The notes: generated by a model from the sequence alone, not told the origin. DNA of 64,000 nucleotides from Thermoplasmata archaeon (GCA_023140195.1 JAGLME010000001.1:193146-257145); one strand, 5' to 3'; shown: positions 13,447 through 64,000, counted from the stretch's first letter. Program-made: numbers and translations.

Positions 13447-16400
13447 TTGGTGGTTACTATGACTAGTGCAAATAGACATGGCGTTTCTAAGATGTGGGCT
13501 CTTGCTGTTGTCATCGCTCTTCTTGCTTCATCTCTAATTGCTCTGTGGATGACAAGCCCACAGGGAGATGCTGGGCTTGGTGCGACCGCGTTCCCTGACG
13601 AGCCAGGAACTCACCCTCTCGGGAGCAGTGGAGACGATCCTAGACCTACCGGAACCACACTGTTCCCGTGGCCCATGCAGCTTCATGACGAACTGCACAG
13701 GTCGTACACTTCCGCTCCCGCTCCAGATTCCAGCGCCGTCCTGTGGTCCAACGCCACTGGCCCGTCCACGTATGGGTCACCCTCCGTTGCCGATGGAAAG
13801 GTGTTCATCGGCGCTCGGACACCTATTGGAGACCGCATGTTTGCCTTCCACCAGGACAATGGGACCCAGGCCTGGAGCACACCGACCGTTCAACCTGTTT
13901 CGGGTGGGTTAGGTGTGACCTCATCACCGGCATACTCCGACGGGTTAGTCGTCTTCGGCGGTGACCGGATATACTGCCTTTGGGCAAGCAACGGGACCGT
14001 CAAGTGGACCGTGAACACCGGTAATAGGAACTGGGGAGACGGGACTCCCACGATCGCTGATGGCAAGGTCTTCATTGGGGGATCCGATAGGAAGCTCTAC
14101 GCAATCGACTTGGATACTGGCACCGTCCTTTGGACACACCAGACTCTCTCAATACTGGGCACCAATTATGGTCTGTATTCCGCGCCCGCAATCTATAACG
14201 GCCACGCTTATCTTCCGGCATGTGACGGCTGGGTGTATCAGATATTGATAGACCAGCCTGGGCCTATCGCAGTTGTGAACCACTCTTATAACACTGGATC
14301 CTCAATGTATGGGTCACCGGTGATTTTCGACAACAAGGTGTACATCGGTAACGGCTACACTTTCAACAACGTCAACAACCGCTTCTATGCGTTGGATGCA
14401 ACCGACCTGAGCTTGGTGTGGGAGTTCTACCCTGGGTCAGGAACGAGCTTCTTGGGGTCGGCAGCGATTGCATACGACAAACTCTTTGTAGGGTCGGTGG
14501 ACGGTAACCTCTACGTTCTCGATCCGTACGGTGGTGGGGGTTCCACGACGATTATCTGGCAATACTCAATCGGGCAGACATGGTCATCTCCAGCAGTCTC
14601 CTCGGGCAAGGTATTCATAGGGTCCAAGTCAAACTTCCTCTACGCCTTTGATGTCAATCAGACAGGACCACCGACATATCTGTGGAGATACAACACCAAC
14701 GGAAATGTGGACTCCTCTCCGGCTATTGCCGACGGCGTGCTCTTCATAGGCAGCCATGGAAACGGCGGGATGATCTATGCCTTCGGACAAGGAGGCGATG
14801 TTATCTCTCCATTCCCGATCTCGGTATCTCCCACTGGAACTGGCGTTCCTGTGAACACGGACATTGTGGTGGTGTGGAGCGAGGTTATGGATTGGACCTC
14901 GGTGGAGGCGTCCTTCAGCTACACTGATATGTCGACCATTTGGACATCTGCTGACGGGACTTTCAATCATTATCCAGTGAACCGAACGTCTATATTCAAT
15001 CCATTTGTGGATCTGGATTTCTCGACAACATACTGGGTAACATTCAGTTCCGTTGCCATAGATCTAGCTGGTAATCCTCTTGACGGTGACGGCAACGGTG
15101 CTGGTGGCGATGATCTCGTTTGGTCCTTTGACACCGTCATTGACAATTCTCCATCCCTGAACCTGTGGGAGCCCGGATCAACGTCTGGACAAAGCTACAC
15201 GGTTGGCACAATGGTCCTGATCGTCTGGGAGGCAAGCGACGACGCATCTTGGCCCAATGGTGGGAACGTAATCAACCTCACTTATGGTGTCAGTCCGTTC
15301 GGTGGGACCACGATATCTCAGTATGAACTTGAAGATGGGAGTTTCAACTGGGATACGACCGGTGAACCACTCGGAACGTACTACGTCAATGTCACCGCTT
15401 ACGATTCACTCGGACAGGTCTCCGGGAGTTACAGCAACTTCTCCTTTGACATCGTCGCGATACCTGATTCGCCCCCGACCGTCAGCCTCACCGCTCCTGT
15501 TGGGGGCTTGAGCTGGTCCGGCGGGACATCGATTAACATTGACTGGACCATGTCGGATGACATTACGCTGGTGCAGAATCTGAACGTTTATCTCAATTAC
15601 TCTTCGTCAAGCGGTTCGGGTCCGATTGCCGGCCCTTTGACGGGCCTTTCTTCACCATCCAGCTATCCTTGGGCTCTTCCACTTCTCGACGCCACTGATG
15701 TCGTCGTTCTGATTGATGTCATTGACGAGTCCGGCAATGTGGGATTCGATTCGAGCGCACAGTTCGAGGTCGATTCCACACCTCCCATCCTGGATTCACA
15801 TTCTCCGTGGATCGACGAGACGAACGTTGCCACGAACGCCAACATAAACATCGAATGGCGCGAGGGAATGAACGCAGCCGCGACCGAAGCTTCGTTCTCA
15901 CTTCAAGATAACGCAACATGGACACTTGTGTCCGCTGTGTTCTCGTGGGGTGGGCCGAACATAACGATGTCCTTCAACCCCGATGCAGACCTTGCTCCCA
16001 ACAGCTGGTACACGGCGAACTTCACGACAGCCGCCAAGGACGACTCACAACCCGGGAACAACCTGGCATTCTACTCGTGGAGCTTCCTGACCGCCGCAGT
16101 TCCAGATTCTCTGCCACCTGAGATTACCAATATCCAGGCATCACCGAGTCCCCAAGAGGTCTTCTTCCCGGTTTGGATCAACGCTTCCATCACCGATCTC
16201 TACGGGATTGCAGAGGCACACGTCGAGGTGTTTGACCCATCACTGGCCCTCATCGGCAATTTCACCATGCAATACGACAGCGGCAATGACTACTTCTTCG
16301 CTCGAAACTACGACATGCTTGGAGTCCACAACTGCACGATATCATCAATGGACAATAACGGAAACTGGGCCCAGACCAGTTCTGGCTGTTCGTTCGAAAT

Positions 16401-17478
16401 GGCCGACAATACTGCGCCTCAAATATCCAATATCCTGAAGGTTCCCAGCCCGGTGGAGATCTTCAACATCATCAACATATCGGCTTCTGTAACTGACAAC
16501 TACGCTGTTCTCTCAGTGAACCTTGACATTGTCGCGGTGGATAATTTCATCATGACCATTGATCCGGGAAGCGGACGGTACTACCACGAGCACGAGTGCC
16601 AGATGCTGGGTCCGCACGATTTCACGATAACGGCATCGGACACATCAGGGAACTTGGCATCCGAGCAGGGGCAGTTCTACGCCATGGATACTGAGCCTCC
16701 GCAGATAGTACACACTCCGCCTTCTCGGGTAGAGGTCGGCTCCACGATAGACTTCCAGGCTACTGTGACGGATAACTACATGGTCGACAGCGTCTGGCTG
16801 AACTACACCGACGCTTCCAGCATTCATTTCAATGTCTCGATGACATCCCTTCCGGGGAACGTCTACCAACTCACTCTTCCAGTTCAGAACCAAGCTGGAC
16901 AGGTGGTTTACCACATTTATGCCAAGGACCTTGCCACCAACGGCGCTGTCACAGCGGTTCTTCAAGTATCGGTTGTTGACACCACTGATGATCTAGCTCC
17001 AATGCCTCCGTGGGGGTTGGTAGCAGAAGAAGGTCCCAATGGGGTTATTACCGTCCTGAGTTGGAGCAAGCCTGTTCTTAACGAGGATATGACCCTTTTG
17101 GATGATCTTGCTGGTTATCACGTATATCGGTCGGAGTCCGAAACAGGTCAGAAGACCCGGATCAACCCGGTCCTCGTGGAGACCACGGCCTTCATCGATG
17201 ATGACATCGAGAACGGAAAGACATACTATTACTGGGTCACGGCCATAGATGAATCCGCTAACGAGTCGGATTTCTCCACCCCTGCGGACATCTCATTTGG
17301 TTCAGAGGCAACTGGCGTTTCGTATGACATAATCCTGATACTCCTGGCCATCATAATCACCGTGGTCCTGTTGATCGCTGTTCTCCTCTGGCGAAAGAAG
17401 AAGGGTGAAGCCTCCGAAGAGCAGCAAGTGGAGGATAACGAAGAACCGACGTTCGAAGAGGAGACGGAACTCGAATAG
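13447..17478 (+). CDS. giant cell-surface protein: signal/TM, PQQ beta-propeller, tandem Ig-like repeats, FN3 domain, C-terminal TM anchor
   Basis: It has an N-terminal hydrophobic segment (MWALAVVIALLASSLIALW). PQQ/BamB-like repeats span aa ~90-450. Three ~100-aa internal repeats start PPEITNIQASPSPQEVFF / APQISNILKVPSPVEIFN / PPQIVHTPPSRVEVGS, each with a TD(L/N)Y core. A C-terminal FN3-like domain (YHVYRSE...YYYWVTAIDESANES) precedes a TM helix and an acidic tail. Confidence 0.6.
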   Translation: MVVTMTSANRHGVSKMWALAVVIALLASSLIALWMTSPQGDAGLGATAFPDEPGTHPLGSSGDDPRPTGTTLFPWPMQLHDELHRSYTSAPAPDSSAVLWSNATGPSTYGSPSVADGKVFIGARTPIGDRMFAFHQDNGTQAWSTPTVQPVSGGLGVTSSPAYSDGLVVFGGDRIYCLWASNGTVKWTVNTGNRNWGDGTPTIADGKVFIGGSDRKLYAIDLDTGTVLWTHQTLSILGTNYGLYSAPAIYNGHAYLPACDGWVYQILIDQPGPIAVVNHSYNTGSSMYGSPVIFDNKVYIGNGYTFNNVNNRFYALDATDLSLVWEFYPGSGTSFLGSAAIAYDKLFVGSVDGNLYVLDPYGGGGSTTIIWQYSIGQTWSSPAVSSGKVFIGSKSNFLYAFDVNQTGPPTYLWRYNTNGNVDSSPAIADGVLFIGSHGNGGMIYAFGQGGDVISPFPISVSPTGTGVPVNTDIVVVWSEVMDWTSVEASFSYTDMSTIWTSADGTFNHYPVNRTSIFNPFVDLDFSTTYWVTFSSVAIDLAGNPLDGDGNGAGGDDLVWSFDTVIDNSPSLNLWEPGSTSGQSYTVGTMVLIVWEASDDASWPNGGNVINLTYGVSPFGGTTISQYELEDGSFNWDTTGEPLGTYYVNVTAYDSLGQVSGSYSNFSFDIVAIPDSPPTVSLTAPVGGLSWSGGTSINIDWTMSDDITLVQNLNVYLNYSSSSGSGPIAGPLTGLSSPSSYPWALPLLDATDVVVLIDVIDESGNVGFDSSAQFEVDSTPPILDSHSPWIDETNVATNANINIEWREGMNAAATEASFSLQDNATWTLVSAVFSWGGPNITMSFNPDADLAPNSWYTANFTTAAKDDSQPGNNLAFYSWSFLTAAVPDSLPPEITNIQASPSPQEVFFPVWINASITDLYGIAEAHVEVFDPSLALIGNFTMQYDSGNDYFFARNYDMLGVHNCTISSMDNNGNWAQTSSGCSFEMADNTAPQISNILKVPSPVEIFNIINISASVTDNYAVLSVNLDIVAVDNFIMTIDPGSGRYYHEHECQMLGPHDFTITASDTSGNLASEQGQFYAMDTEPPQIVHTPPSRVEVGSTIDFQATVTDNYMVDSVWLNYTDASSIHFNVSMTSLPGNVYQLTLPVQNQAGQVVYHIYAKDLATNGAVTAVLQVSVVDTTDDLAPMPPWGLVAEEGPNGVITVLSWSKPVLNEDMTLLDDLAGYHVYRSESETGQKTRINPVLVETTAFIDDDIENGKTYYYWVTAIDESANESDFSTPADISFGSEATGVSYDIILILLAIIITVVLLIAVLLWRKKKGEASEEQQVEDNEEPTFEEETELE

Positions 17479-52614: not shown

Positions 52615-53139
52615 TCATACATACCGCATTTCTTGAAGTTTTTCCAAAACCCTCTTCGCGCTCTCCTCTGGCGTCTCATTCTCGGTATCCACCACAACCT
52701 CCGGATTCTCCGGTTCCTCGTAGGGGTCCGAAACACCTGTGAAGTTCTGTATTTCGCCGGACAACGCCTTCTTGTAATGACCTTTCACGTCCCTCTCAAT
52801 GCATTCATCGACAGTGCATTTCACGTACACTTCAACGAAGTTGCCTACCATTTCCCTTGCGCGACGCCTGAAGTCACGGAAGGGAGATATGAGACCCACT
52901 ATGGCTATGACACCGTTCCTCGAGAGGAGCTTGCTCACATACGCCACCCTGTTGGCATGGATCTGCCTGTCTTTCTTGCTGAACCCGAGCTTTGGGCTGA
53001 GATTTTCCCTGACCTCGTCTCCATCCAGGACTTCCACCATCCTTCCAGCGTCACTCAATCTCTTTTCCAGAATCCTAGCAATCGTCGTCTTCCCTGATCC
53101 GGGAAGTCCTGTCAACCAGACTACGCAACCTCTCTCCAT
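52615..53139 (-). CDS. cysC: adenylyl-sulfate (APS) kinase
   Basis: The P-loop WLTGLPGSGKTT and LDGDEVRENLSPKLGFSKKDRQIHANRVAYVSKL, which matches the APS-kinase LDGDNIRxGLxxDLGFSxxDRxENIRR motif, are present. It is ~174 aa. Confidence 0.75.
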   Translation of the reverse strand: MERGCVVWLTGLPGSGKTTIARILEKRLSDAGRMVEVLDGDEVRENLSPKLGFSKKDRQIHANRVAYVSKLLSRNGVIAIVGLISPFRDFRRRAREMVGNFVEVYVKCTVDECIERDVKGHYKKALSGEIQNFTGVSDPYEEPENPEVVVDTENETPEESAKRVLEKLQEMRYV

Positions 53140-53140
53140 G

Positions 53141-54517
53141 TTACCACTCTATGACTTCTCCTTTCATGTCCTCTGGAATTGGAATTTCCATCGCTTTCAG
53201 AATCGTGGGTGCAATATCCAATATGCTCTTTTGGCCAATATCTCTTCCTTGGTTCTCCTTCGGATCGTATATCAAGAACACTCCTTGCCAATCGTGAACC
53301 GCATCATCGGGCCCCTTATCGTTCTCTGGCAGGTACATTGAGCCGTGTCCGATGGTCCCTGCCGATCTCCAGGACAGGTCATCGAAGAACACCATGAGGT
53401 CGGGTGGGTCTCCGTTGCATATGTTGTACGTCTCCTCAGGTTTCAGGACCATGTTCTTCATCCCAATTCCCTGCGGGTCCTTTATCTCCATAATCCTCGT
53501 GGATATCTCGTCTCTGATTTCATCGTACTCGCTCGGAGGAACGATGCCTTGAGCTTCCCTGCCTTTCAGATTGATGAATATCCTTGCGTAGTAACCGCCC
53601 CAGCCCCATGCTCTGGTCCTGCTCCAGTCGATGTCCGCTTTCTCCAGATCCGTGACCTCTTCCGGGCTCTTCCTCAGCTTGAGATAACCTTGCTCCATCA
53701 GCCACTCGTTGACACAGAAGCATCCTTTCATTGCCTTTGCGCCATGGTCAGACACGATGAATACGATGGTGTCATCATCGATTATCTCGAGAAGCTTGCC
53801 TATCTCCTTGTCCAGATACTCATAGTAGTCCTTTATTGCGCTCTGAAACCTGTTGCCAGGTTCGTGAAGGTGATGTGTCGGGTCGTGGTATTTCCAGAAC
53901 CCATGCTGCAACCTGTCCAAGCCGATTTCCACGAAGAAGAAGAGGTCCCATTCCTTGTTTTCCAGGAGATAACGTATGACTCTGAACCGCTTCTCGGTCA
54001 TCTCATAGATCCCTTCCAGAACCTGGTCCTTCTCATCGGTCCTGAACACAACGTCGAACAGGTACTCTCCAACCAGGTCCTCTATCTCGTGCTTGAGCTC
54101 CGGGGGGTGTGTGAATTGCCTGTTGGTGTCTGGAGTCATGAAGCCTGAGATGATGTGTCCGTTGATGGGCTCGACCGGATATGAGGGCGGCAGACCGATG
54201 ACCGTGGATTTGAGGCCGTTGTCTCCGAGAATGTGCCACAATGCCTTTTCCTTCAGTTTGTCCCTCGTTGCGAGCCAGATATCAGTGTATGAGTTGTTCC
54301 TCCTGTGCCTGAAGCCGTAGAGCCCCAACCTTCCGGCATCCTTTCCTGTGACCATGGACAACCATGCGGGGATCGTGATAGGCGGTATGATCGTTCTTAG
54401 CTTTCCATGAACTCCTTTCCCCATCAGCCTCCGAATGTTGGGCAAGTCATCTATGAACTCTTCGAATAAGAGTTTGGGCGAAGCGCAATCCATTCCTATT
54501 ACCAGAACTTTCTTCAA
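53141..54517 (-). CDS. type I phosphodiesterase / nucleotide pyrophosphatase (NPP, alkaline-phosphatase superfamily)
   Basis: VIGMDCAS is present. PPITIPAWLSMVTGK matches the NPP nucleophile motif PTxTxPxxxSxxTG. The metal ligands FIVSDHGA and the C-terminal HDW-type His are also present. Confidence 0.6.
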   Translation of the reverse strand: MKKVLVIGMDCASPKLLFEEFIDDLPNIRRLMGKGVHGKLRTIIPPITIPAWLSMVTGKDAGRLGLYGFRHRRNNSYTDIWLATRDKLKEKALWHILGDNGLKSTVIGLPPSYPVEPINGHIISGFMTPDTNRQFTHPPELKHEIEDLVGEYLFDVVFRTDEKDQVLEGIYEMTEKRFRVIRYLLENKEWDLFFFVEIGLDRLQHGFWKYHDPTHHLHEPGNRFQSAIKDYYEYLDKEIGKLLEIIDDDTIVFIVSDHGAKAMKGCFCVNEWLMEQGYLKLRKSPEEVTDLEKADIDWSRTRAWGWGGYYARIFINLKGREAQGIVPPSEYDEIRDEISTRIMEIKDPQGIGMKNMVLKPEETYNICNGDPPDLMVFFDDLSWRSAGTIGHGSMYLPENDKGPDDAVHDWQGVFLIYDPKENQGRDIGQKSILDIAPTILKAMEIPIPEDMKGEVIEW

Positions 54518-55528
54518 TCAGGTTGCCTCCAACAGTTTCAGGACCTCATTCTGGAAGGCCTCATTCTCATCACTGGGGACAATCGCTCCCATGACCTCCC
54601 TCTTTCCGCCTGAGACGTGTCCTTTTCCCTGGGCCATGTCGAGAATGGGTTTCAGATCCAGATGGACATCACTCGTTCTCACGTACACTCTATCGTACTC
54701 TTCGAAGAATCTGGTTTGGATCACTAGGGACGTTCTCACATCCTTCTTTCTTGACAGCTTCCTGGAAACAGCCGAGATAATGTCATAACTGGAGGAGAAC
54801 TCGTGAACCAGGATGCCCTTTGTAGGTGGATTTGCATTTATCTCTTGGATGGCTATTCTCTTCTTCACCTTTTCAGCATTCTCAATCCAGGTTTCGTTCG
54901 TCAATAGTGATTGAGGGTCATCTTGGTGTTCAAGCACAAAAGAAACAGCCTCCTCTATGGCCGAAACATCACCAATCCTGTAGTTCGAGTCAATCAGTTC
55001 AGTCATTCGAAGAAGCTCTTCGAGGGTGAGCCTTGCTGATTGCAGGTATTTCTCCATGCTGGGATATACAGCATTCTCGCGTATGTTCCGCTCCTTGTCT
55101 CCGACAGCTCCCAGTACCGTCAGGAGATCCAAGGGAGTTTTCCATAGTTCTGAAAGCACCCATGTGGTCGAAGGATAGTTATCAGATGGCGACCCACGGG
55201 CCACCGGATTGAATTGATGCAGATCACTTCTCTTCTTCTTCGCGTGATGGTCAAACACCCAGATATCTGAGGACAATCCTACCAGCCGATCGAAATCATT
55301 CTCTGGGAGGGCAAGATCTGCGACGATTATTGCATCGAATCCTTCGTTCTCGATGTTCACGAACTCTTCATCGGAGAGAGAATACATCCCTATTCTGGGA
55401 ACCATGGTCTTGACGGAAGAACCTTCGAGGAAACCTGTGATTATGGCTGCTGAGCATATGCCATCCGTATCCCAGTGGTGGAGGATGAGTGTCTTCCCCG
55501 ACTCCTTGAGCTTCTCGAATCCTTCCAT
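54518..55528 (-). CDS. DHH-DHHA1 phosphoesterase, NrnA-like (nanoRNase / pAp phosphatase)
   Basis: Motif I (LILHHWDTDGICSAA), IVADLAL, DHH (VFDHHAKKK) and the DHHA1 region GKGHVSGGK are present. Confidence 0.6.
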   Translation of the reverse strand: MEGFEKLKESGKTLILHHWDTDGICSAAIITGFLEGSSVKTMVPRIGMYSLSDEEFVNIENEGFDAIIVADLALPENDFDRLVGLSSDIWVFDHHAKKKRSDLHQFNPVARGSPSDNYPSTTWVLSELWKTPLDLLTVLGAVGDKERNIRENAVYPSMEKYLQSARLTLEELLRMTELIDSNYRIGDVSAIEEAVSFVLEHQDDPQSLLTNETWIENAEKVKKRIAIQEINANPPTKGILVHEFSSSYDIISAVSRKLSRKKDVRTSLVIQTRFFEEYDRVYVRTSDVHLDLKPILDMAQGKGHVSGGKREVMGAIVPSDENEAFQNEVLKLLEAT

Positions 55529-55533
55529 CTGAA

Positions 55534-56646
55534 CTACTCCACGAACGGGTTCTTGTCCGCAAGGAGGATTTCCGCTATTTCCTCTCTCATCAACTCTTTC
55601 TGGGGGCAGTCTCCCTTTTCAATGGACTCCCTGATGGCAGTGCCACTGAACTTGATGTGATGTTCCTCACCATGAGGGCAGGTCTTCTCGTTGGCGATTC
55701 CTCCGCATTTGTTGCAGTGGAAGAATGAAGAGAAGAACATGGGCACGATGCCTAGGTCAGGGAATTCATCGAACATGTCCTGTGCTGCGTATGGGTCGTA
55801 GAAGGACCCCACGCCAGCGTGATCTCTCCCAATGATGAAATGTGTGCATCCGAAGTTCTTTCGCATTATTGCGTGGTGTATGGCCTCCCTTGGGCCTGCG
55901 TACTTCATGTCCGTTCTTAGGATTGATAGGACGGCCCTCTCTCGGAGGAAGAAGTCTTTGATCAGGCGATCGTAGGACTCCAGGATAAGCTCGTCTTTGA
56001 AGTCGCCTTTCTTCTTCTTTCCGATTAGTGGGTTTATGAAGACGCCATCCGCGAATGTGAGCGCGGTCCTCTGGATCCATTCGTGACCCAGATGTGGTGG
56101 GTTTCGGGTCTGGAAGCCAACGATGGTTCTCCACCCCTTCTCTCGGAAGAGGATTCTGGTTTCAGCCGGGCTTAACTTGAACCTATCGTATGTTGACTCC
56201 TCTTCTTTGACTAGGTCTATGTCGCCACCCAGGAATACATCTTCGAGGTTCAGTGTTCTGGCGACACCGGGATGCTGCGGGTCGTTTGTCCCAAAGACCT
56301 TCTCGGCGATTTCCTTCTTGTTGAATCTGTATTTCTCCTCGATGCGCAATAATGCAGTGATGTTGTTTTGAGGATCCGTGACCAGGCATTCATCACCTTC
56401 CATGATATTGGCTGACTCGTTCTCTGATATATCGAGAAGAACCGGGATGGTCCAAGGAGTGTCGTCTGGCAGTCTTCTTTCATTCAAGATACTTGCCAAT
56501 TCATCTTGCCGAAGGAACCCCTCAAGCGGACTGAAGATCCCTGCCGCTATGTTCGCTGCATCGATCAGTGTCTCTTCCTTTCTCACCAGTTGATGGAACT
56601 CAGTTTCTCCGGAAAAGATTCTTTTCCTCTCATTTTCACTGAGCAA
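55534..56646 (-). CDS. sat: sulfate adenylyltransferase (ATP sulfurylase)
   Basis: QTRNPPHLGHE (the QTRN/HxxH motif), the GRDHAGVG motif and overall ATP-sulfurylase length and order are present. Confidence 0.8.
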   Translation of the reverse strand: MLSENERKRIFSGETEFHQLVRKEETLIDAANIAAGIFSPLEGFLRQDELASILNERRLPDDTPWTIPVLLDISENESANIMEGDECLVTDPQNNITALLRIEEKYRFNKKEIAEKVFGTNDPQHPGVARTLNLEDVFLGGDIDLVKEEESTYDRFKLSPAETRILFREKGWRTIVGFQTRNPPHLGHEWIQRTALTFADGVFINPLIGKKKKGDFKDELILESYDRLIKDFFLRERAVLSILRTDMKYAGPREAIHHAIMRKNFGCTHFIIGRDHAGVGSFYDPYAAQDMFDEFPDLGIVPMFFSSFFHCNKCGGIANEKTCPHGEEHHIKFSGTAIRESIEKGDCPQKELMREEIAEILLADKNPFVE

Positions 56647-58278: not shown

Positions 58279-58458
58279 AACTCAATCGGAAGAAGACGAA
58301 TCAAATGGATTCTTCGCTGACATCCTCTTGCCAATATTCTGAGCCCACCTAAGGCCAGGTGTTATTAGGTCAGTCAGGCCCAATGTTGTCCTCCAAGCCG
58401 ATTCTAGATATGGAATGCAGGGCCATCGAAGAACTCGTAACTCCTCAACTGGATAAAT

Positions 58459-58478
58459 GGAAAAAGAAAAGAAAAGGG
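58459..58478 (-). terminator. oligo-T terminator after paralogue A
   Basis: CCCTTTTCTTTTCTTTTTCC lies on the minus strand ~25 nt after the stop. Confidence 0.4.
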
Positions 58479-58503
58479 TTGAGAGCTGGAACTGCGTCCG
58501 GCT

Positions 58504-59013
58504 CTATGCTGTGTGTAATATGTTGAAGCTCCAGTAGACTAGATATCCATATTCTGGCGTGCATGTACCTTCATCGCATGTATATCCCTTGCCTGGGTAG
58601 TGGATGAAGATATCACCGTGATTTGTGCCCTTGCTTGCATCTTCGTTGATGAAAGATGTGAATTCCGCATATCCGTACCAGGTGCCTTGGACATCCATAT
58701 ATGGCACTCCTTCTTGGTCTGGATGGGGGACGAATTCCCTTCCCACAGTTGGTGGCTCATAATCCTCGAATCCTCCTGGTCGAGCCTTGGGTGGGCTGGT
58801 ACTTCTGTACTCAATTGAGATGACGTAGTAAGTCGCCACCCAGCGGCAGGCTTCCAGTTCGAAGTTAACACGAGCATCTTCAACATACGTCCCCTCGACC
58901 TTCACTCCTGTCTTGAAGTTCACGACCTTCTCCAGAGTTGCTACTGATCCATAGCTCATTACCGGAGCGGCTAGCATAAATGCAGCCAATAGTGCCAACA
59001 GTATCCTTTTCAT
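58504..59013 (-). CDS. secreted ~17-kDa Cys-containing protein, paralogue A (unknown function)
   Basis: It has a signal peptide (MKRILLALLAAFMLAAPVMSYG) and four conserved Cys. It shares ~60% identity with 59838..60353. GGAGGTGA lies 7 nt before the ATG. Confidence 0.6.
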   Translation of the reverse strand: MKRILLALLAAFMLAAPVMSYGSVATLEKVVNFKTGVKVEGTYVEDARVNFELEACRWVATYYVISIEYRSTSPPKARPGGFEDYEPPTVGREFVPHPDQEGVPYMDVQGTWYGYAEFTSFINEDASKGTNHGDIFIHYPGKGYTCDEGTCTPEYGYLVYWSFNILHTA

Positions 59014-59795
59014 TGATTATCACCTCCTCCCCTTAAGGGACTTGGGTATTTCCCTCCTGCGAGTGAGATTCCCTCGAATCTTGTCCTCACGCCCCTCCTC
59101 GGCGCTCGCACGTCCCAAGGAAGGACAATACACCCCTCCTCAGGATTGCCATCAGCAGTCAAGAAGGTATCAAGCCAGTTCATTTGGTCGCTGGATGACC
59201 TATGCTCCACGGCCGATTCAGAGAGCTTCACAACACCAGGCAGAGCAATATTCACCACACTATCACCGATTGCTACGTAGGGACGGACTTGTCACGCTTC
59301 TAAGGCAAAGCCAACCTCTCCAGGCTTGCTGTTCCTCACATATGGTCTCCTAGAAATCGGGACGTTGGGAAGAACAAAAGGCTAGGAGGGTTTTGATCGC
59401 ATGGGAAAGACCCCTTTGAAGATAATCTTGCCCGCGCCTCCTATCTCTCCTGGATAGATCCCGCCTCTGATGACGGAGGTGTATCTCATCTACGGTATTT
59501 GAAGATTCCCTCATGGACTAATATTGGAACATCTCTCAAGAGTAGAGACGGATATCGGAAGTGTCGTCCCTTTGGCTCTGGAGATTCTGCAAGAAGAATA
59601 GTGATAATTCTTGGGCACCTGCATGTATTGACGGCAGTGAAATTGTGTGAGACGAATGCTCGCTGAACCCCCTGGCTTACCCTTCGGTTTTCAGCCTTGA
59701 GCAGGATGGAGGGGGCACCCGACATGGTTCACGGTAGAGGCTTCAAACTCAATCGTACGGAGTTATCGATTCTCTGAGAACTTCGGGTTAATTGA

Positions 59796-59819
59796 GGAAA
59801 AAAGAAAAAAAAGAAAAAG
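59796..59819 (-). terminator. oligo-T terminator (CCCTTTTTCTTTTTTTTCTTTTTTCC on minus strand) after paralogue B
   Basis: It is a T-rich run 20-45 nt downstream of the stop, typical of archaeal intrinsic termination. The same element is duplicated after paralogue A. Confidence 0.4.
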
Positions 59820-59837
59820 GGTTTGTTGGTCGTGACT

Positions 59838-60353
59838 TCATGCACTTCGGTGGTGTATGTTAAAGCTCCAATATACCAGATATCCATAGTCAGGCTCGCA
59901 ATTCTGATTATCGGAACAGGTGTATGGCGTGTCAGGGTAGTGGATTATGATGTCGCCGTGGTTGATACCGTGCTTTGCATCTGGGTTGATGAATGATGTG
60001 AATTCTGCATACCCGAACCAAACTCCCATTTGATCCCAAAAGGGCACTTCTTCTTGGCCTGGATATACCACGAAGTCTCTGCCTACAGTCGGCGGATCAT
60101 GATTCAGGAATCCTCCCGGTGCAGCGTGCCATGGTGTTGTGTGTCGGTACTCGATTGAGACCTCGTACAACTGAGCAACCCAGCGGCATGATATGATCTC
60201 CCACTCGACGCGGGCATCGTCAACATACGATGCGTCTTCCTTAATACCCGTATCATAGTCTACGACCTCTTCGATGGTTGCCACGGTGCCAAAACTCATA
60301 AACGGAATAGCCATAAGCGAGGCAGCCATTAGAGCGAACAGTAGCTTCTTCAT
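59838..60353 (-). CDS. secreted ~17-kDa Cys-containing protein, paralogue B (unknown function)
   Basis: It has a signal peptide (MKKLLFALMAASLMAIPFMSFG). The conserved blocks ARVxxExxxCRWVA, IEYR, PPTVGR, YGYAEFTSFIN, NHGDIxIHYP, YTC and YGYLVYWSFNI are shared with paralogue A. Confidence 0.6.
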   Translation of the reverse strand: MKKLLFALMAASLMAIPFMSFGTVATIEEVVDYDTGIKEDASYVDDARVEWEIISCRWVAQLYEVSIEYRHTTPWHAAPGGFLNHDPPTVGRDFVVYPGQEEVPFWDQMGVWFGYAEFTSFINPDAKHGINHGDIIIHYPDTPYTCSDNQNCEPDYGYLVYWSFNIHHRSA

Positions 60354-61213
60354 TGATTATCACCTCCTCCCTATTCGGGACTCAGGTATTTCCCCCTGGT
60401 GGGTGAGATTCCTTCGAATCCTGTCATCGCGCCCCCCTCGGCGCTCGTGTAACCAGAGAAAAACATCTCCGTCTCTCCCCAGGATTACTGTAAGGAATTG
60501 AGAATGTGTTATGCCAGTACCCCTTATCGTAATGAGACCTATGCTCCAGCGTCGACTTCCCAGGATCTGCTGTAACAAGCTCAATGGTGTTCACTCTGTA
60601 TCACACTCCAAGACGTTTTCAGGGACGGACTTGTTGTGGTTTTCGGCTATGTCTACCCATCGGGGTTTCTGGAAGTGCAAGAAAGAACAGCTATTCTGGT
60701 GGGATGGAAAGATCCGTCAGAGATTTCCGTACTCCCGCCTCCTGTTCCCCCCTGTGTAGATGTAGCTCCAATTGATAAGCTGGCATGGGTTATGTTGTAT
60801 TTCAAGTTTCCTCTCTGGATGTGCAGAATATCTTATTCCGAATGCACGAACAACCGCTTCTATAGAATAGGTGGGATGATTTGAGCTTGTGAGAAATCTC
60901 TACGGAGAAAAATGACATCTGAATGGCGCATAAGATGCGAGGGTTCCAAGAAAAGGTGTCAGAACATCGAAAGACCCCCTCATACGAACTCAAGTTCTTT
61001 TCAGAGGTGGCGACTAGAGTCCATTGAGTGATTAGGTTTTTGCTGAAAACTGTTCAATTGGTGATTTAGCAGTACATCACGAGGGTTGTAGACGATGGGT
61101 CCCTCCCACATTCGCCCATACGCCAGTTTTGGGTAGGGGACATCAAATGTGAGATCGTCCATTCCTACTCCGCGCTTTTCTAGGACGTCTGGGGACAAGA
61201 GCCCAGGCCATTT

Positions 61214-62395
61214 CTAAATTAGAGAAGAGTATATGGACTCTAATGGCTCGAGAAGTTTGTCCCATGTGTAATGGTCTCGAATCACCGTGACGGCATTCTT
61301 CGAGGCACGATGCCAAGTACTTTTATCTCTCAACGCAAGAGCAGCATCAACCAGTTCTTCAGGTTCTCCTGACGCTGTTGCAATCCCCGCCCCAGATTCG
61401 TGAATAAACTCTCCCCAGTCTCCGACACGCGGCGCAATCACGGGCAGCCCGCAAGACATGTAGTCCATTATCTTGATGGGCCACGCAACTTGTCGAACCA
61501 GATCTGTTGTTGATGGTGCTACGCCAATTTGTGAACGAGAGAAGACTTTCAAGGCGTGTTTCCGAGGCTTAGCACCCAAATACTTCAGGTTGGGCGGCTT
61601 CTTCTCACGGATATTTCTCAGTATGTCGTCCTTTCTTGGACCACCGCCTAGTAACAGGAAGCCTAGCTCACGGCTCTTCCTCAGGTGAGCCATTCTCACA
61701 TAATCCTCCACACGTTCCCAATATGAGAAAGCGCCTCCATATACCAAAGTCATCCTGGGGGAATAGTATGCCAGATGGTCAGAGACAAATCCACCATTCG
61801 GCACTACAGTTACCTTTCTTGGGGAGGCTCCATAATTGGAAACAATGTAGTCTCTCATCCTATTGCTCACCACGATGGTATGATCAGCGTGACAGACAGC
61901 CAGTCTCTCAATCTTCGTCAAGTAGTCGGCCTTTTCCGAATAGTCTTGACCACACTCCCCGACGCATTCTTCTCCCCATAGGCCATGAAGATCAAGGACA
62001 TAGGGAAGACCCGTCCTCTCAGCCACAACTCTGGAAATGTGTCCCATATGGGAACCTTCGGCGTGGATAGCCCCAACACTCTCCTGAAGCGCTTCAGTTT
62101 TCGAAAGAATGCGCTTGTCAATCTCTATTGTCCTGAAGTCATTGGATAGTTGGCTGGATCGTGCGGATTGTCCTTCAAAGACCCGTTGTTTGAGCCGTAA
62201 GGCCGAGTTGACTAGAAGATGTTTGACCCGTTGAGATCTACTTATCTTTGAAACCTCAATCACACTAGTTCCTAATGAGGCTATCTGACGGAGCATCTCT
62301 CTACTTCGAATTCCCATGCCAAATCCGCCTTCTCCAAGGAAGGCAATCCTCTTCATGTTGTTCTCCTCTGAATGTAAGCAGGCAATAATGACCAC
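61214..62395 (-). CDS. glycosyltransferase family 4 (GT-B, group 1)
   Basis: The C-terminal GT1 motifs are present (the E-x7-E region GVAPSTTD...GLPVIAPRVGDWGEFI), with an N-terminal GT4-type domain. The RBS AGAGGAGAA precedes the ATG. Confidence 0.7.
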   Translation of the reverse strand: MVIIACLHSEENNMKRIAFLGEGGFGMGIRSREMLRQIASLGTSVIEVSKISRSQRVKHLLVNSALRLKQRVFEGQSARSSQLSNDFRTIEIDKRILSKTEALQESVGAIHAEGSHMGHISRVVAERTGLPYVLDLHGLWGEECVGECGQDYSEKADYLTKIERLAVCHADHTIVVSNRMRDYIVSNYGASPRKVTVVPNGGFVSDHLAYYSPRMTLVYGGAFSYWERVEDYVRMAHLRKSRELGFLLLGGGPRKDDILRNIREKKPPNLKYLGAKPRKHALKVFSRSQIGVAPSTTDLVRQVAWPIKIMDYMSCGLPVIAPRVGDWGEFIHESGAGIATASGEPEELVDAALALRDKSTWHRASKNAVTVIRDHYTWDKLLEPLESIYSSLI

Positions 62396-63001: not shown

Positions 63002-64000
63002 TTAAATGTTCTCCTTTTGTTCACCATGGAGGTGGTGTTTTTGAGCTGCCAGAAGTGGGAGGACCTTTGGGAATCTTGAGGCCACCTCAACTGCAATGGT
63101 TGACGATCTCAGGAGTTCTTCGACATTCAAGCCGTTCTTAGCGAAGTGGATGAGTCTCTCGAGAGAAGCCCTCATTCCCATGTAATTCTTCATCAGGAAC
63201 AGCCTTGATTCTCCCAACTCAGAGGCGCTCATCGACTCAGATCCCATCACTCCACTGAATGATGTAAAGCGCGACCAGTCCTCGGTTTCCAATAGCCCAT
63301 GATCTTGGGCATATTGATATAAGCGTGTGCCTGGATAGGGCGTCGCGAGATTGATGGATATGTCTACGTTTCCCAGCTGCCTCAGAGTCTTGAGAGTCCT
63401 TCGTATGGTGCTTCGATTCTCCCCGGGAAGACCCAAGATGATATGCGTCAACGGGCTTACTCCTGCTTCTTTTGCCAGTCTTATGGATGTTCTGACTGTT
63501 GAGATCTTCATACCGGGCTTACCGACTTTTCGAAGGAGGTCTGGATCTCCCGTTTCGAGACCAAAATGAACTCTGCTGCAACCGGCCTGTTTCATCTTCT
63601 TGAGAAGTCTCTCTGAAACCAAGTCGAATCTGGTCTCGCATAACCACTGAATCTTCAAGTCTCGCTCCATGATCAAATCGCAAATCCTCTCAGCTCTGTC
63701 TGACTTGGATGAGAATAGTTGGTCACGGAAGGTGAATGCCGTAGTCCCATACTCGTGATGGAGGTATTCCATCTCTCTGACAACGTCTTCGACAGAGCGA
63801 AGGCGAAGAGTGGCTCCCATACCGATGGGATAAGGGCAGTAGAATGAACAAGGCATAGGGCAGCCTCTGCTACCCCAAATCGGGAAGAACCTTTCCTCTC
63901 TTCCAAAGTGGGGATCACGATAGCGAGTGATAGGCATGTCTTCATGAGGAGGCCAGGGCAGTTTGTTCAGGTCTACGGCGTCAGCTGAAACCCTTGTAGT
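63002..64000 (-). CDS. radical SAM enzyme (B12-binding-type rSAM C-terminal half), 5' end beyond window
   Basis: The cluster motif region GSRGCPMPCSFYCPYP has unusual CX3CX3C spacing. FGLETGDPDLL and ILGLPGE are typical of class B rSAM. The reading frame stays open upstream of the listed ATG (63937) to the window edge. Confidence 0.6.
   Translation of the reverse strand, partial: TTRVSADAVDLNKLPWPPHEDMPITRYRDPHFGREERFFPIWGSRGCPMPCSFYCPYPIGMGATLRLRSVEDVVREMEYLHHEYGTTAFTFRDQLFSSKSDRAERICDLIMERDLKIQWLCETRFDLVSERLLKKMKQAGCSRVHFGLETGDPDLLRKVGKPGMKISTVRTSIRLAKEAGVSPLTHIILGLPGENRSTIRRTLKTLRQLGNVDISINLATPYPGTRLYQYAQDHGLLETEDWSRFTSFSGVMGSESMSASELGESRLFLMKNYMGMRASLERLIHFAKNGLNVEELLRSSTIAVEVASRFPKVLPLLAAQKHHLHGEQKENI

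What the first reader, a model, noticed from the sequence alone, without database searches (positions are those of the whole stretch)
58441..61213. Tandem ~1.34-kb duplication carrying small secreted Cys-containing paralogues with a conserved long 5' leader
Two minus-strand genes, 58504..59013 and 59838..60353, encode ~60%-identical ~150-aa mature proteins. Each has a signal peptide and four conserved Cys (ACRWVA...YTCxxxxCxPxYGY), which suggests two disulfides. The motifs (IEYR, NHGDIxIHYP) hit no family I recognise. The duplication includes the oligo-T terminator, a perfect SD (GGAGGTGA, 7 nt spacing) and ~100 nt of highly conserved leader. A further ~180 nt of conserved upstream sequence and ~500 nt of diverged sequence are also included, so regulation was duplicated along with the ORF. 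They are embedded in a glycan and sulfation neighbourhood. They could be lectin-like, small toxins or bacteriocins, or S-layer accessory proteins.
Basis: seen in the sequence. Interest (0 to 1): 0.6.

Follow-up and report, generated by a model that had tools for sequence, protein, structure and literature searches.

The report
Duplicated secreted-protein gene with conserved RNA leader
Two old tandem copies of a gene for a small secreted archaeal protein of unknown function each carry a structured RNA leader, and this leader, absent from Rfam, also sits in front of many secreted-enzyme genes in several archaeal groups, so it may be a shared control switch.

Summary
Two minus-strand ORFs (58504-59013, 59838-60353) encode 60%-identical Sec-type secreted proteins. 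Each has an oligo-T tract, a GGAGGTGA Shine-Dalgarno (SD) sequence and a leader conserved over about 300 nt. There are three conserved Cys, not four. dN/dS is 0.27 and dS about 1.1, so the duplication is old and both copies are under selection. The protein family is tiny (about 16 clusters among 5.8 billion), has no Pfam, NCBIfam or PDB match, and folds with high confidence as a beta-sandwich with no close PDB or BFVD match by Foldseek. In every locus with enough flanking sequence it lies beside an orthologous AprD4/HpnJ-like B12 radical-SAM gene, plus an orthologous GT4 where checked.

The main result concerns the leader. It holds a 5-bp hairpin (GCGCC-GAGGNGG-GGCGC). The hairpin loop pairs with a downstream CCA to form an H-type pseudoknot, supported by compensatory changes. 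In the window copies the hairpin is flanked by a k-turn signature (GA...GAUGA). Among family members the leader is 86% identical while the coding DNA is 59% identical. The same motif, absent from Rfam, lies about 35-41 nt upstream of the start codon of 60+ other genes in Thermoplasmata, Bathyarchaeota, Methanomassiliicoccales and Methanosarcinales. These are mostly secreted proteins, including peptidases. I read it as a candidate new cis-regulatory RNA. Neither the protein's function nor the RNA's effector is known.

The parts
58459..58478 (-). Oligo-T tract (CCCTTTTCTTTTCTTTTTCC) downstream of gene A. Likely an archaeal-type terminator.
   Evidence: Read directly from the sequence. Its function as a terminator is inferred.
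58504..59013 (-). Gene A: a 169-aa Sec-secreted beta-sandwich protein (NCBI tag KAR39_01090).
   Evidence: dN/dS 0.27 against gene B.
59020..59027 (-). Shine-Dalgarno sequence GGAGGTGA of gene A.
   Evidence: It is conserved in all family leaders.
59029..59040 (-). Small hairpin 3 (UCCC-UUAA-GGGG) directly next to the SD. A long-form feature.
   Evidence: The same stem occurs with different loops in copy B, L195, L005 and L017.
59042..59051 (-). Conserved tail AAAUACCCAA. Positions 59044-59046 are the proposed 3' strand of pseudoknot helix P2.
   Evidence: In copy A one P2 pair is an A.C mismatch.
59066..59081 (-). Inserted hairpin 2 (AGAUUC-GAGG-GAAUCU) in pseudoknot loop 3.
   Evidence: L005 has GGACUU-GAAG-GGGUCC, a compensatory change.
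59084..59107 (-). Hairpin 1 (59089-59105, GCGCC-GAGGAGG-GGCGU) flanked by a k-turn signature: 5' GA (59106-59107), a 3' GAG bulge, then GA (59084-59088).
59014..59320 (-). Leader A: the stretch that aligns with leader B.
59795..59821 (-). Oligo-T tract downstream of gene B.
59838..60353 (-). Gene B: a 171-aa paralogue (KAR39_01095).
   Evidence: AF2 pLDDT 88.8 for the full length and 92.7 for the mature part.
60360..60367 (-). Shine-Dalgarno sequence GGAGGTGA of gene B.
60368..60380 (-). Small hairpin 3 (UCCC-GAAUA-GGGA) next to the SD.
60382..60391 (-). Tail AAAUACCUGA. Positions 60384-60386 (CCU) are the proposed P2 3' strand.
   Evidence: G-C, G-C and G.U pairs with the loop.
60406..60421 (-). 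Inserted hairpin 2 (GGAUUC-GAAG-GAAUCU).
60424..60446 (-). Hairpin 1 (60429-60444, GCGCC-GAGGGG-GGCGC) with a k-turn signature: 5' GA (60445-60446), a 3' GAU bulge, then GA (60424-60428). This equals the box-C core GAUGA.
60354..60660 (-). Leader B: the stretch that aligns with leader A.
61214..62395 (-). GT4 glycosyltransferase, a conserved neighbour (53% identical to the one beside the family gene in L002).
63002..64000 (-). B12-binding radical SAM gene, AprD4/HpnJ-like, cut by the window end. A conserved neighbour in four independent loci.

Best explanation
Shown:
- This is an old tandem duplication of a complete expression unit (leader, SD, CDS and oligo-T tract).
- The gene encodes a small Sec-exported all-beta protein. 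It belongs to a very small, unannotated family found in sediment and wetland archaea; the two genome-derived members are labelled Thermoplasmata or Thermoplasmatota.
- Both copies are under purifying selection.
- In all four independent loci with enough flanking sequence, the gene lies next to an orthologous AprD4/HpnJ-like B12 radical-SAM gene. The GT4 neighbour is 53% identical between the window and L002.
- The proximal roughly 100 nt of each leader is a 'long form' of a widespread archaeal 5'-UTR RNA motif that is not in Rfam. The motif is a 5-bp G+C hairpin whose loop pairs with a downstream CCA, giving an H-type pseudoknot with an A-rich connecting strand. In about 40% of instances, including both window copies, the hairpin is flanked by a k-turn signature (GA / N-A-U-G-A). 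In the short form, hairpin-to-start distance is mostly 35-41 nt.
- The same motif precedes many genes for secreted peptidases and other exported proteins, and some small cytosolic proteins, in at least four archaeal groups.

Inferred:
- The two paralogues belong to a set of mostly secretome genes that share one post-transcriptional control element.
- The element most likely sets translation initiation. It would do so by switching between folded and unfolded states when it binds a trans factor, either a k-turn-binding protein of the L7Ae type or a small ligand.
- The protein itself is most likely an extracellular or cell-surface binding or structural module. It probably works alongside the neighbouring glycan-modifying genes rather than as an enzyme.
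For: Duplication and selection:
- establish the two units.
- One search gives dN/dS 0.27, dS 1.12 and 49% identity at third codon positions.
- One search gives the leader identity profile.

Protein family:
- 11 representatives at E<1e-10 among 1.84e9 and 16 clusters among 5.8e9.
- No Pfam, NCBIfam or PDB sequence hit.
- AF2 pLDDT is 88.8 and 92.7. The best Foldseek TM-score is 0.41.

Synteny:
- The radical SAM gene is 50-59% identical across the window, L002, L010 and L005. The GT4 is 53% identical.
- The radical SAM protein matches AprD4 (PDB 6fd2, E=5e-49) and the AprD4 and HpnJ models.

Leader:
- The motif is present in every family locus that has upstream sequence.
- The 55-nt leader has a median identity of 86%, against 59% for CDS DNA and 42% for protein.
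- The hairpin is read in three different frames in different loci. Leader A versus B mismatches by codon position are 20/16/21. Conservation is therefore not protein-coding.
- Compensatory changes: P1 G-C to U-A. P2 pair 3 is U-A, A-U, G-C or G.U. P2 pair 1 is G-C or U-A.
- The k-turn halves co-occur: 18/20 versus 4/37, Fisher p=3.6e-9. This matches the published description of L7Ae 5'-UTR k-turns (PMC6298567).

Spread of the motif:
- 8 archaeal genome loci and 60 metagenome loci. Hairpin-to-start distance is mostly 35-41 nt.
- Downstream genes include S8, C11 and C25 peptidases, PAD, cohesin and NosD. About 33 of 59 have signal peptides by a crude rule.
- No Rfam match and none in viral contigs. 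No paper holds the sequence.
Against: - No experimental or transcript data exist. The transcription start, the RNA fold and any binding partner are all inferred.
- Most motif instances were retrieved by exact-match patterns, so they cannot vary at the paired positions. Covariation rests on about six variant copies.
- Copy A has an A.C mismatch in P2, and variant L144b has an unrelated loop.
- The k-turn lacks an obvious Watson-Crick NC helix and is absent from about 60% of instances, including the short-form leaders of this protein family.
- The whole leaders do not fold more stably than shuffled sequence (z about +0.4).
- The downstream gene set is heterogeneous and points to no ligand.
- The protein function is a guess. 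Fold matches are weak and no binding partner is known.
Confidence: 0.6

Rival explanations
1. The leader motif is a constitutive expression booster rather than a switch. A stable structure near the 5' end presents an SD-like loop (GAGGUGG, complementary to the 16S rRNA 3' end). It would recruit or park 30S subunits and protect the mRNA from 5'-to-3' decay, as the Bacillus STAB-SD and aprE/ompA-type 5' stabilisers do. This would give high, stable expression of secreted proteins.
For: - The loop is SD-like in nearly all copies, and the true SD is a perfect GGAGGTGA.
- In one large subgroup a TATA-like box lies about 32 nt upstream of the hairpin, which would put the hairpin at the very 5' end of the mRNA.
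- The downstream genes are secreted enzymes that could plausibly be highly expressed.
- The STAB-SD and aprE analogy rests on my own knowledge, not on a tool result.
Against: - TATA-like boxes lie at variable distances (-32, -50, -65 and beyond -75). The motif keeps its spacing to the start codon instead.
- In variants the loop keeps its pairing with the tail but loses its SD likeness (L005 AAAGGG).
- A stabiliser does not explain the invariant AAAUACC tail or the k-turn signature.
Confidence: 0.22
2. The conserved leader is (also) a translated upstream ORF. A leader peptide of 50-80 codons starts at an upstream SD-like GGAGG block and reads through the hairpin. Its translation would control the downstream gene by coupling or by attenuation-like unfolding of the hairpin.
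For: - Gene callers annotate 64-103-aa ORFs upstream of family genes in L005-L009, L011, L013, L014 and L196.
- In both window copies the distance from a GTG to the hairpin is exactly 150 nt.
- A GGAGG block followed by a start codon recurs upstream.
- A stop codon falls at one fixed position just after the hairpin in 37 of 67 leaders.
Against: - The hairpin is read in all three frames in different loci.
- Only 22 of 67 leaders have 30 or more open codons upstream in the frame that carries the fixed stop.
- A-versus-B mismatches show no third-position excess (20/16/21). The peptides are about 34% identical, no better than expected from the DNA identity.
- The 'stop' positions coincide with the AUGA of the k-turn.
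Confidence: 0.1
3. The element acts as DNA. The inverted repeat GCGCC-N7-GGCGC would be an operator for a dimeric transcription factor sitting between promoter and gene, defining a transcriptional regulon.
For: It is a perfect 5-bp inverted repeat that is shared by many genes.
Against: - The spacer length varies (6 or 7 nt), while the spacer sequence and an asymmetric downstream tail are conserved.
- Changes are compensatory in the RNA sense, including G.U pairs, which have no meaning in duplex DNA.
- The motif has one fixed orientation and a fixed distance to the start codon rather than to TATA-like boxes.
Confidence: 0.05
4. The protein is a filament or adhesin subunit. It would resemble chaperone-usher pilins or archaeal 'thread' and bundling-pilus subunits, which are Sec-exported beta-sandwiches that polymerise by donor-strand exchange. 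The duplicated copies would be major and minor subunits or antigenic variants.
For: - The top Foldseek hits are repeatedly pilin and adhesin Ig-like domains: CfaE, AggA, FaeG/FaeE, CsuA/B, FimA and Cna-type.
- It has a Sec signal peptide, is small, lies near surface-glycan genes and occurs as tandem paralogues.
- The comparison with archaeal threads rests on my own knowledge.
Against: - All matches are weak (TM 0.41 or lower, rmsd 7-12 A, 8-12% identity).
- The AF2 monomer is complete and confident, with no open groove reported.
- No assembly genes are seen nearby.
- Neither paralogue has an N-glycosylation sequon (read from the sequences).
Confidence: 0.15

Closest known systems
L7Ae-binding k-turn stem-loops in archaeal 5'-UTRs (Daume et al. 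2017, PMC5539422; Huang, Ashraf and Lilley 2019, PMC6298567)
   Same: [quoted passage not shown]
- A 3-nt (G/A/C)AU bulge is followed by G-A on one strand, with G-A immediately 5' of the helix on the other strand.
- It lies in an mRNA leader close to the Shine-Dalgarno sequence.
- In the published cases protein binding folds the RNA and blocks ribosome access.
   Different: - The C helix here is a strong 5-bp G+C stem. Its loop and a downstream tail are themselves highly conserved and pair with each other as a pseudoknot.
- The SD lies outside the stem, 20-70 nt away.
- No Watson-Crick NC helix is evident.
- About 60% of motif copies lack the k-turn signature.
- The target genes are secretome genes, not l7ae.
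- L7Ae binding was not tested.
Small H-type pseudoknot riboswitches (preQ1-I, SAM-II/SAM-V, guanidine-III)
   Same: - About 35-nt core: a 5-bp P1, a 3-bp P2 between the hairpin loop and a 3' tail, and an A-rich connecting strand.
- It sits just upstream of the ribosome-binding site.
- Unpaired nucleotides are invariant.
   Different: - It matches no Rfam model, even at E<=1.
- The SD is not part of P2.
- The controlled genes do not form a metabolic pathway.
- No ligand is known.
c-di-GMP-type riboswitch regulons in bacteria (functional analogy only, from my own knowledge)
   Same: One RNA motif is placed in front of many unrelated genes for secreted or surface proteins and proteases.
   Different: The sequence and fold are unrelated, the host domain of life is different, and no signalling ligand is implicated here.
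STAB-SD and 5' stem-loop mRNA stabilisers of Gram-positive exoprotein genes (from my own knowledge)
   Same: An SD-like sequence or hairpin upstream of the real SD in leaders of secreted-protein genes.
   Different: The motif here keeps its spacing to the start codon rather than to the 5' end. Variants conserve the pairing rather than the SD likeness.
Ig-like adhesin and pilin domains (CfaE, AggA, Cna/ACE19, cohesin)
   Same: All-beta sandwich of about 145 residues, exported, and associated with cell-surface genes.
   Different: The best TM-score is 0.41 with 8-12% identity. The family's own motifs (YDTG, IEYRHT[ST]P..A.PGGF, GTNHGDI, WSFNVxH) have no counterpart in annotated families.

Membership tests
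Tandem gene duplication | Two adjacent, same-strand homologous units | tested here: met
   The spacing is 1337-1340 nt, and about 0.87 kb can be aligned.
Sec (SPase I) secretory protein | A basic N-terminus, a hydrophobic core of 12-16 residues, and small residues at -3/-1 of a cleavage site | tested here: met
   Present in all family members with a complete N-terminus: MKK..., L/A/V-rich core, S-x-x-A-x-A. AF2 models a helix at residues 2-19. No dedicated signal-peptide predictor was available.
Sec (SPase I) secretory protein | No lipobox Cys, no class III (pilin) signal and no C-terminal anchor | tested here: met
   There is no Cys in the signal region. The LPAM_1 hit is below its cut-off (E=0.068). 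The C-terminus is the conserved beta-strand WSFNVxH.
Any Pfam, NCBIfam or PDB-represented protein family | A significant profile match | tested here: not met
   Searches gave no hit.
Chaperone-usher or archaeal thread-type pilin | An Ig-like fold with a missing strand that is completed by donor-strand exchange | tested here: inconclusive
   Only weak Foldseek similarity. Multimer modelling was not possible with these tools.
   Each paralogue has three Cys. Family-wide only one is near-conserved.
k-turn (L7Ae-type) RNA element | A C helix followed by a 3-nt bulge and then G-A on the bulged strand | tested here: met
   Copy B has GGCGC-GAU-GA and copy A has GGCGU-GAG-GA. N-A-U-G-A occurs in 22 of 57 motif copies.
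k-turn (L7Ae-type) RNA element | G-A on the non-bulged strand immediately 5' of the C helix, allowing tandem sheared G.A pairs | tested here: met
   Both window copies have CGA|GCGCC. The two halves co-occur with p=3.6e-9.
k-turn (L7Ae-type) RNA element | An NC helix continuing beyond the G.A pairs | tested here: inconclusive
   No consistent Watson-Crick pairs at positions 3b:3n to 6b:6n. Published L7Ae leaders also have few.
k-turn (L7Ae-type) RNA element | Binding of L7Ae and kinking of the RNA | not testable with these tools
   This needs EMSA, FRET or a crystal structure.
H-type pseudoknot | Hairpin loop bases pair with a 3' single strand, supported by covariation | tested here: met
   P2 pair 3 is U-A, A-U, G-C or G.U. 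P2 pair 1 is G-C or U-A. The number of variant copies is small.
Known riboswitch or RNA families (Rfam 15) | A covariance-model match | tested here: not met
   Searches gave no relevant hit at E<=1.
Riboswitch (general) | Direct ligand binding that changes expression | not testable with these tools
   No ligand candidate can be drawn from the gene set.

The most novel reading that the evidence does not exclude
The hairpin, pseudoknot and k-turn leader is a new class of archaeal cis-regulatory RNA: a riboswitch or an RNA-protein switch. It would coordinate translation of a cross-phylum 'secretome regulon' in sediment archaea (Thermoplasmata, Bathyarchaeota, Methanomassiliicoccales, Methanosarcinales). 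That regulon would include extracellular peptidases, surface proteins and this new beta-sandwich family. The duplicated gene pair in this window would be one of its regulated targets.
Probability: 0.3. Interest if true: 0.85.

Novelty: new variant of a known kind. Interest (0 to 1): 0.66.

Why it matters
- Few cis-regulatory RNAs are known in archaea (my own knowledge). One that spans several phyla would be a rare handle on post-transcriptional control in uncultured sediment archaea. It sits in front of extracellular peptidase genes of Bathyarchaeota and Thermoplasmata, two groups linked in the literature to protein degradation in marine sediments (PMC9123169, title and abstract only).
- The motif gives a simple sequence tag (GCGCCGAGGUGGGGCGC...AAAUACCAA) for picking out co-regulated, probably highly expressed secretome genes in metagenomes.
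- It makes testable whether L7Ae-type k-turn regulation extends beyond the l7ae gene itself to sets of exported proteins.
- The protein is a confidently folded, unannotated family with conserved His, Asn and Asp motifs. It is always found beside an AprD4/HpnJ-like sugar-radical enzyme, which makes it a candidate partner in an unknown surface-glycan process.

Tried and rejected
- Pfam, NCBIfam and PDB sequence searches on the proteins found nothing.
- Three weak hits to giant repeat proteins in the exhaustive search (P0015-P0017) were judged spurious. P0016 is a Sushi-repeat-like sequence.
- The search for related loci failed with the 14-sequence alignment. With a 7-sequence alignment it found no relative in GTDB representative genomes or JGI metagenomes.
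- Whole-leader folding showed no excess stability, so I dropped the idea of a large structured RNA.
- The sigma-70 promoter and hairpin-terminator scan was not informative for an archaeon.
- An upstream coding ORF was considered and largely rejected.
- I considered pairing of the AAUACCAAU tail with the upstream GGAGG block. It was seen only in L001 and was dropped.
- I considered an anti-SD role for UACC pairing with the real SD. It was dropped because many motif copies have SDs without GGUG.
- Integron attC, mobile-element and viral origins were considered. There is no viral hit, and the motif keeps a fixed spacing to start codons.
- Literature searches found no description of the motif.
Full report
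**1. The observation**

ORF listing shows two minus-strand ORFs, 58504-59013 (169 aa) and 59838-60353 (171 aa). Their products are 60% identical and 77% similar over the full length, E=5e-80. Direct repeats inside them are spaced 1337-1340 nt apart.

Read on the minus strand, each gene has GGAGGTGA 6 nt before the ATG. Each is followed by a T-rich tract: 58459-58478 for gene A and about 59795-59821 for gene B.

A pairwise alignment of the two upstream regions gives 76-88% identity from -1 to -99 and 52-68% from -100 to about -307. Further upstream the identity is at background level.
- There are three conserved Cys per protein, not four.
- Only about 0.87 kb is demonstrably duplicated. The remaining roughly 500 nt of each 1.34-kb period does not align.

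**2. Source and context**

The proteins are identical to NCBI entries KAR39_01095 and KAR39_01090 from a 'Thermoplasmata archaeon' MAG with a 720-kb contig. The window is ordinary chromosome. It carries gyrase A/B, CysRS next to tRNA-Cys, PPDK, MacB/FtsX permeases and PQQ-propeller surface proteins.

The immediate neighbours are as follows:
- an ATP sulfurylase, an APS kinase, a DHH phosphoesterase and a phosphodiesterase/sulfatase-like protein
- a UDP-GlcNAc 2-epimerase, convergent with gene A
- upstream of gene B, a GT4 glycosyltransferase and a B12-binding radical SAM gene

**3. Selection on the paralogues**

Nei-Gojobori counting gives pN 0.25, pS 0.58, dN 0.31, dS 1.12 and dN/dS 0.27. Identity is 76%, 78% and 49% at codon positions 1, 2 and 3. 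The duplication is old, since synonymous sites are close to saturation, and both copies are constrained.

**4. The protein family**

The family is very small.
- A word-indexed search of 5.8 billion clusters found only the two paralogues and one 44%-identical relative.
- An exhaustive HMM search of 1.84 billion representatives found 11 proteins at E<1e-10.
- A profile search found 16 clusters.
- Nearly all members sit on short metagenome contigs. The only named sources are Thermoplasmata or Thermoplasmatota MAGs.

All members are 129-171 aa. All with a complete N-terminus have a Sec-type signal peptide. They share the motifs YDTGxK, WExxxC, IEYRHT[ST]PxxAxPGGF, WYGxxxFxSxIxxxAKRGTNHGDIxI and a C-terminal WSFN[VI]xH. 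The Y-T-C-x4/5-C hairpin is an insertion found only in the window pair, P0018 and P0004.

There is no Pfam, NCBIfam or PDB sequence match.

AlphaFold2 with the 16-sequence alignment gives a confident all-beta model. pLDDT is 88.8 for the full length. For the mature part pLDDT is 92.7 and pTM is 0.82.

**5. Conserved neighbourhood**

In every related contig with enough flanking sequence, the gene lies within 1-2 kb of an orthologous B12-binding radical SAM gene. This holds for the window, L002/L003, L010 and L005, at 50-59% identity.

L002 also has the GT4 (53% identical), followed by a flippase and further glycosyltransferases. The orientation differs between loci, so this is neighbourhood conservation and not one fixed operon.

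The closest characterised relatives of the radical SAM protein are AprD4 (PDB 6fd2, E=5e-49; NCBIfam rSAM_AprD4, E about 1e-61, below its cut-off) and HpnJ. To my knowledge both do radical chemistry on sugars. I infer that the radical SAM enzyme and the GT4 modify a glycan or glycolipid rather than the small protein. Neither paralogue has an N-glycosylation sequon.

**6. The leader is an RNA motif, and it is not private to this family**

Aligning the upstream DNA of all family loci shows one block shared by all: GCGCC-GAGG(U)GG-GGCGC, 4-8 nt, (A)AAUACCAAU, about 10 nt, GGAGGUGA, then the start codon. The window copies, L195 (the closest relative, P0018), L005 and L017 are 'long forms'. They carry one extra hairpin inserted after the first and a small CCC/GGG hairpin next to the SD.

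Among seven short-form family loci, the 55 nt before the start codon have a median identity of 86%. The coding DNA is 59% identical and the proteins 42%. A non-coding stretch that is far better conserved than the gene it precedes must be functional in its own right.

It is not a hidden coding region.
- The hairpin is read in all three frames in different loci.
- The A-versus-B differences across the possible upstream ORF are spread 20/16/21 over codon positions.

**7. Spread of the motif**

An exact-match scan of GTDB representative genomes for the 17-mer gave mostly chance hits in high-G+C bacteria. It also gave eight archaeal loci. In most of these the hairpin lies in the same leader layout before other genes:
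- Thermoplasmata (L017, L085, L109)
- Thermoplasmatota (L090, a family member)
- Methanomassiliicoccales (L121)
- Methanosarcinales (L078)
- Bathyarchaeota (L096)
- Geothermarchaeales (L076, hairpin only)

A scan of JGI metagenomes for the hairpin plus ATACCAA (24 specified bases, so chance matches are not expected) gave 60 loci. In the short form the hairpin end lies mostly 35-41 nt from the start codon of the downstream gene.

About 33 of 59 distinct downstream proteins have signal peptides by a crude rule. Pfam on 40 of them finds the following:
- secreted or surface types: subtilases (3), clostripain C11, gingipain-type C25, a PAD_porph deiminase, NosD/beta-helix, cohesin (2) and PQQ/Kelch propellers
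- small cytosolic proteins: GYD, DUF3303, MIase-like, SnoaL/DUF4440 and SCO4226-like

Other checks:
- TATA-like boxes lie at variable distances from the hairpin, so the motif keeps its spacing to the start codon and not to the transcription start.
- There is no Rfam 15 match at the gathering threshold or at E<=1.
- There is no match in IMG/VR viral contigs.
- No paper holds the sequence, and two topical searches found no description.
- In the 64-kb window a covariance model (R1) run without filters finds only the two paralogue leaders.

**8. Structure of the motif**

*P1.* This is the 5-bp stem GCGCC/GGCGC. One independent copy (L192b) has GCUCC/GGAGC, and copy A has a G.U closing pair.

*P2.* The last three loop bases pair with the CCA of the tail.
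- Canonical copies have U-G-G pairing with C-C-A.
- L195 has A-G-G with C-C-U.
- L005 has G-G-G with C-C-C.
- Copy B has G-G-G with C-C-U.
- L177b has U-G-U with A-C-A.
- Copy A has one A.C mismatch.
- L144b has an unrelated loop.

On a 22-sequence alignment, 98.9% of cells pair. Two pairs change on both sides, and 0 of 500 shuffles reach the observed values. The hand table adds the 6-nt loops and L195.

Together P1 and P2 give an H-type pseudoknot with an A-rich third loop, which in the long forms tolerates an inserted hairpin.

*k-turn signature.* 'GA' immediately 5' of the stem co-occurs with 'N-A-U-G-A' immediately 3' of it. The counts are 18 of 20 against 4 of 37, Fisher p=3.6e-9.
- Copy B reads CGA|hairpin|GAUGA.
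- Copy A reads CGA|hairpin|GAGGA.
- L005 reads CUGA|hairpin|AAUGA.
- L195 reads GA|hairpin|AAUGA.

*Caveats.*
- Most copies were fetched by exact match, so they cannot inform covariation.
- No NC helix is evident.
- About 60% of copies lack the k-turn halves.
- The whole leaders are not unusually stable.

**9. How it most likely works**

*Shown.* The unit is duplicated and both copies are constrained. The family is rare, exported and all-beta. It neighbours a sugar-radical enzyme. Its leader carries a conserved pseudoknot (with or without a k-turn) that is shared with many secretome genes.

*Inferred.* The motif controls translation initiation of a set of mostly exported proteins. It would do so by changing fold when bound by a k-turn-binding protein or a small ligand. 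The small hairpin next to the SD in the long forms would pass that change on to SD accessibility.

*The main rival* is a constitutive enhancer or stabiliser that uses the SD-like loop. Variants keep the pairing rather than the SD likeness, and the motif keeps its spacing to the start codon. I therefore rank this rival lower.

*The protein.* I commit to an extracellular binding or structural module linked to the neighbouring glycan chemistry, at modest confidence. A pilin-like polymer subunit is a live alternative.

**10. Verdict**

- The finding is real and the genes are functional.
- The protein is a new, unannotated family.
- The most valuable result is the leader. It is a candidate new archaeal cis-regulatory RNA, found in several phyla, with features of known kinds (k-turn leaders and H-type pseudoknot switches) in a new combination and with a new target set.

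Noticed in passing
window 52615-56646 (minus strand): A complete sulfate-activation set lies next to the glycan genes: APS kinase (52615-53139), a phosphodiesterase/sulfatase-like protein (53141-54517), a DHH phosphoesterase that could be a PAP phosphatase (54518-55528) and ATP sulfurylase (55534-56646). This suggests that sulfated surface glycans are made here.
   Followed up: partly
window 63002-64000; L002 2656-4167; L010 796-2367; L005 3-1304: An AprD4/HpnJ-like B12 radical SAM gene is the most constant neighbour of the small-protein gene (50-59% identity in four loci). Its substrate is unknown. Its closest relatives, AprD4 (a diol-dehydratase) and HpnJ, act on sugar substrates to my knowledge.
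   Followed up: partly
L085 6921-6937 and 7107-7123; L017 about 2050-2075 and 2108-2124: Some Thermoplasmata leaders carry two copies of the hairpin in tandem. L085 has two exact copies 186 nt apart. L017 has a degenerate GCGCCGAGCUGGUGGCG about 50 nt upstream of the exact copy.
   Followed up: no
67 motif loci (L001-L194), position +6 codons from the hairpin's CGC: A stop codon (UGA, UAG or UAA) falls at one fixed position just after the hairpin in 37 of 67 leaders, yet the upstream frame is open for 30 or more codons in only 22. The UGA cases overlap the k-turn AUGA, but the UAG and UAA cases remain unexplained.
   Followed up: partly
L001, L002, L011, L013, L014 and L197, about 235 nt upstream of the start codon: Short-form family loci share a promoter-like block, AAGGATTAA[AG]TA. 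In three of them it is followed by CCATAC and GCGCACTTGAGAA, and then by a purine block GGAGG(G)G with a start codon. This implies a 5'-UTR of about 210 nt with further conserved parts that I did not analyse.
   Followed up: no
L011 345-347: In this family member the position of the usual GTG/ATG start reads ACG, while the signal peptide continues in frame (T-K-K-I-L-L...). The gene caller therefore chose a downstream ATG. This could be a non-canonical start, a sequencing error or a decaying copy.
   Followed up: no
window 59150-59320 and 60490-60660 (minus strand): The distal leader holds short blocks that are nearly identical in A and B: ACAAGTCCGTCCCT, CTGGAGCATAGGTC, ACTGGC and AATCCTG(A/G)GGAG. 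The last block is also present in L005. Their role is unknown, and exactly 150 nt separates a GTG from the hairpin in both copies.
   Followed up: partly
window 5883-7559 and 13447-17478: Two PQQ/beta-propeller proteins lie in the same window; the larger (1343 aa) also has Big_5 Ig-like domains. They have no copy of the leader motif.
   Followed up: no
L078, L139, L166, L170, L164, L192, L175, L189 and L190: A recurring non-secreted target of the motif is a set of proteins of about 95 aa (GYD, DUF3303 and MIase-like). Their link with secreted peptidases under the same leader is unexplained.
   Followed up: no
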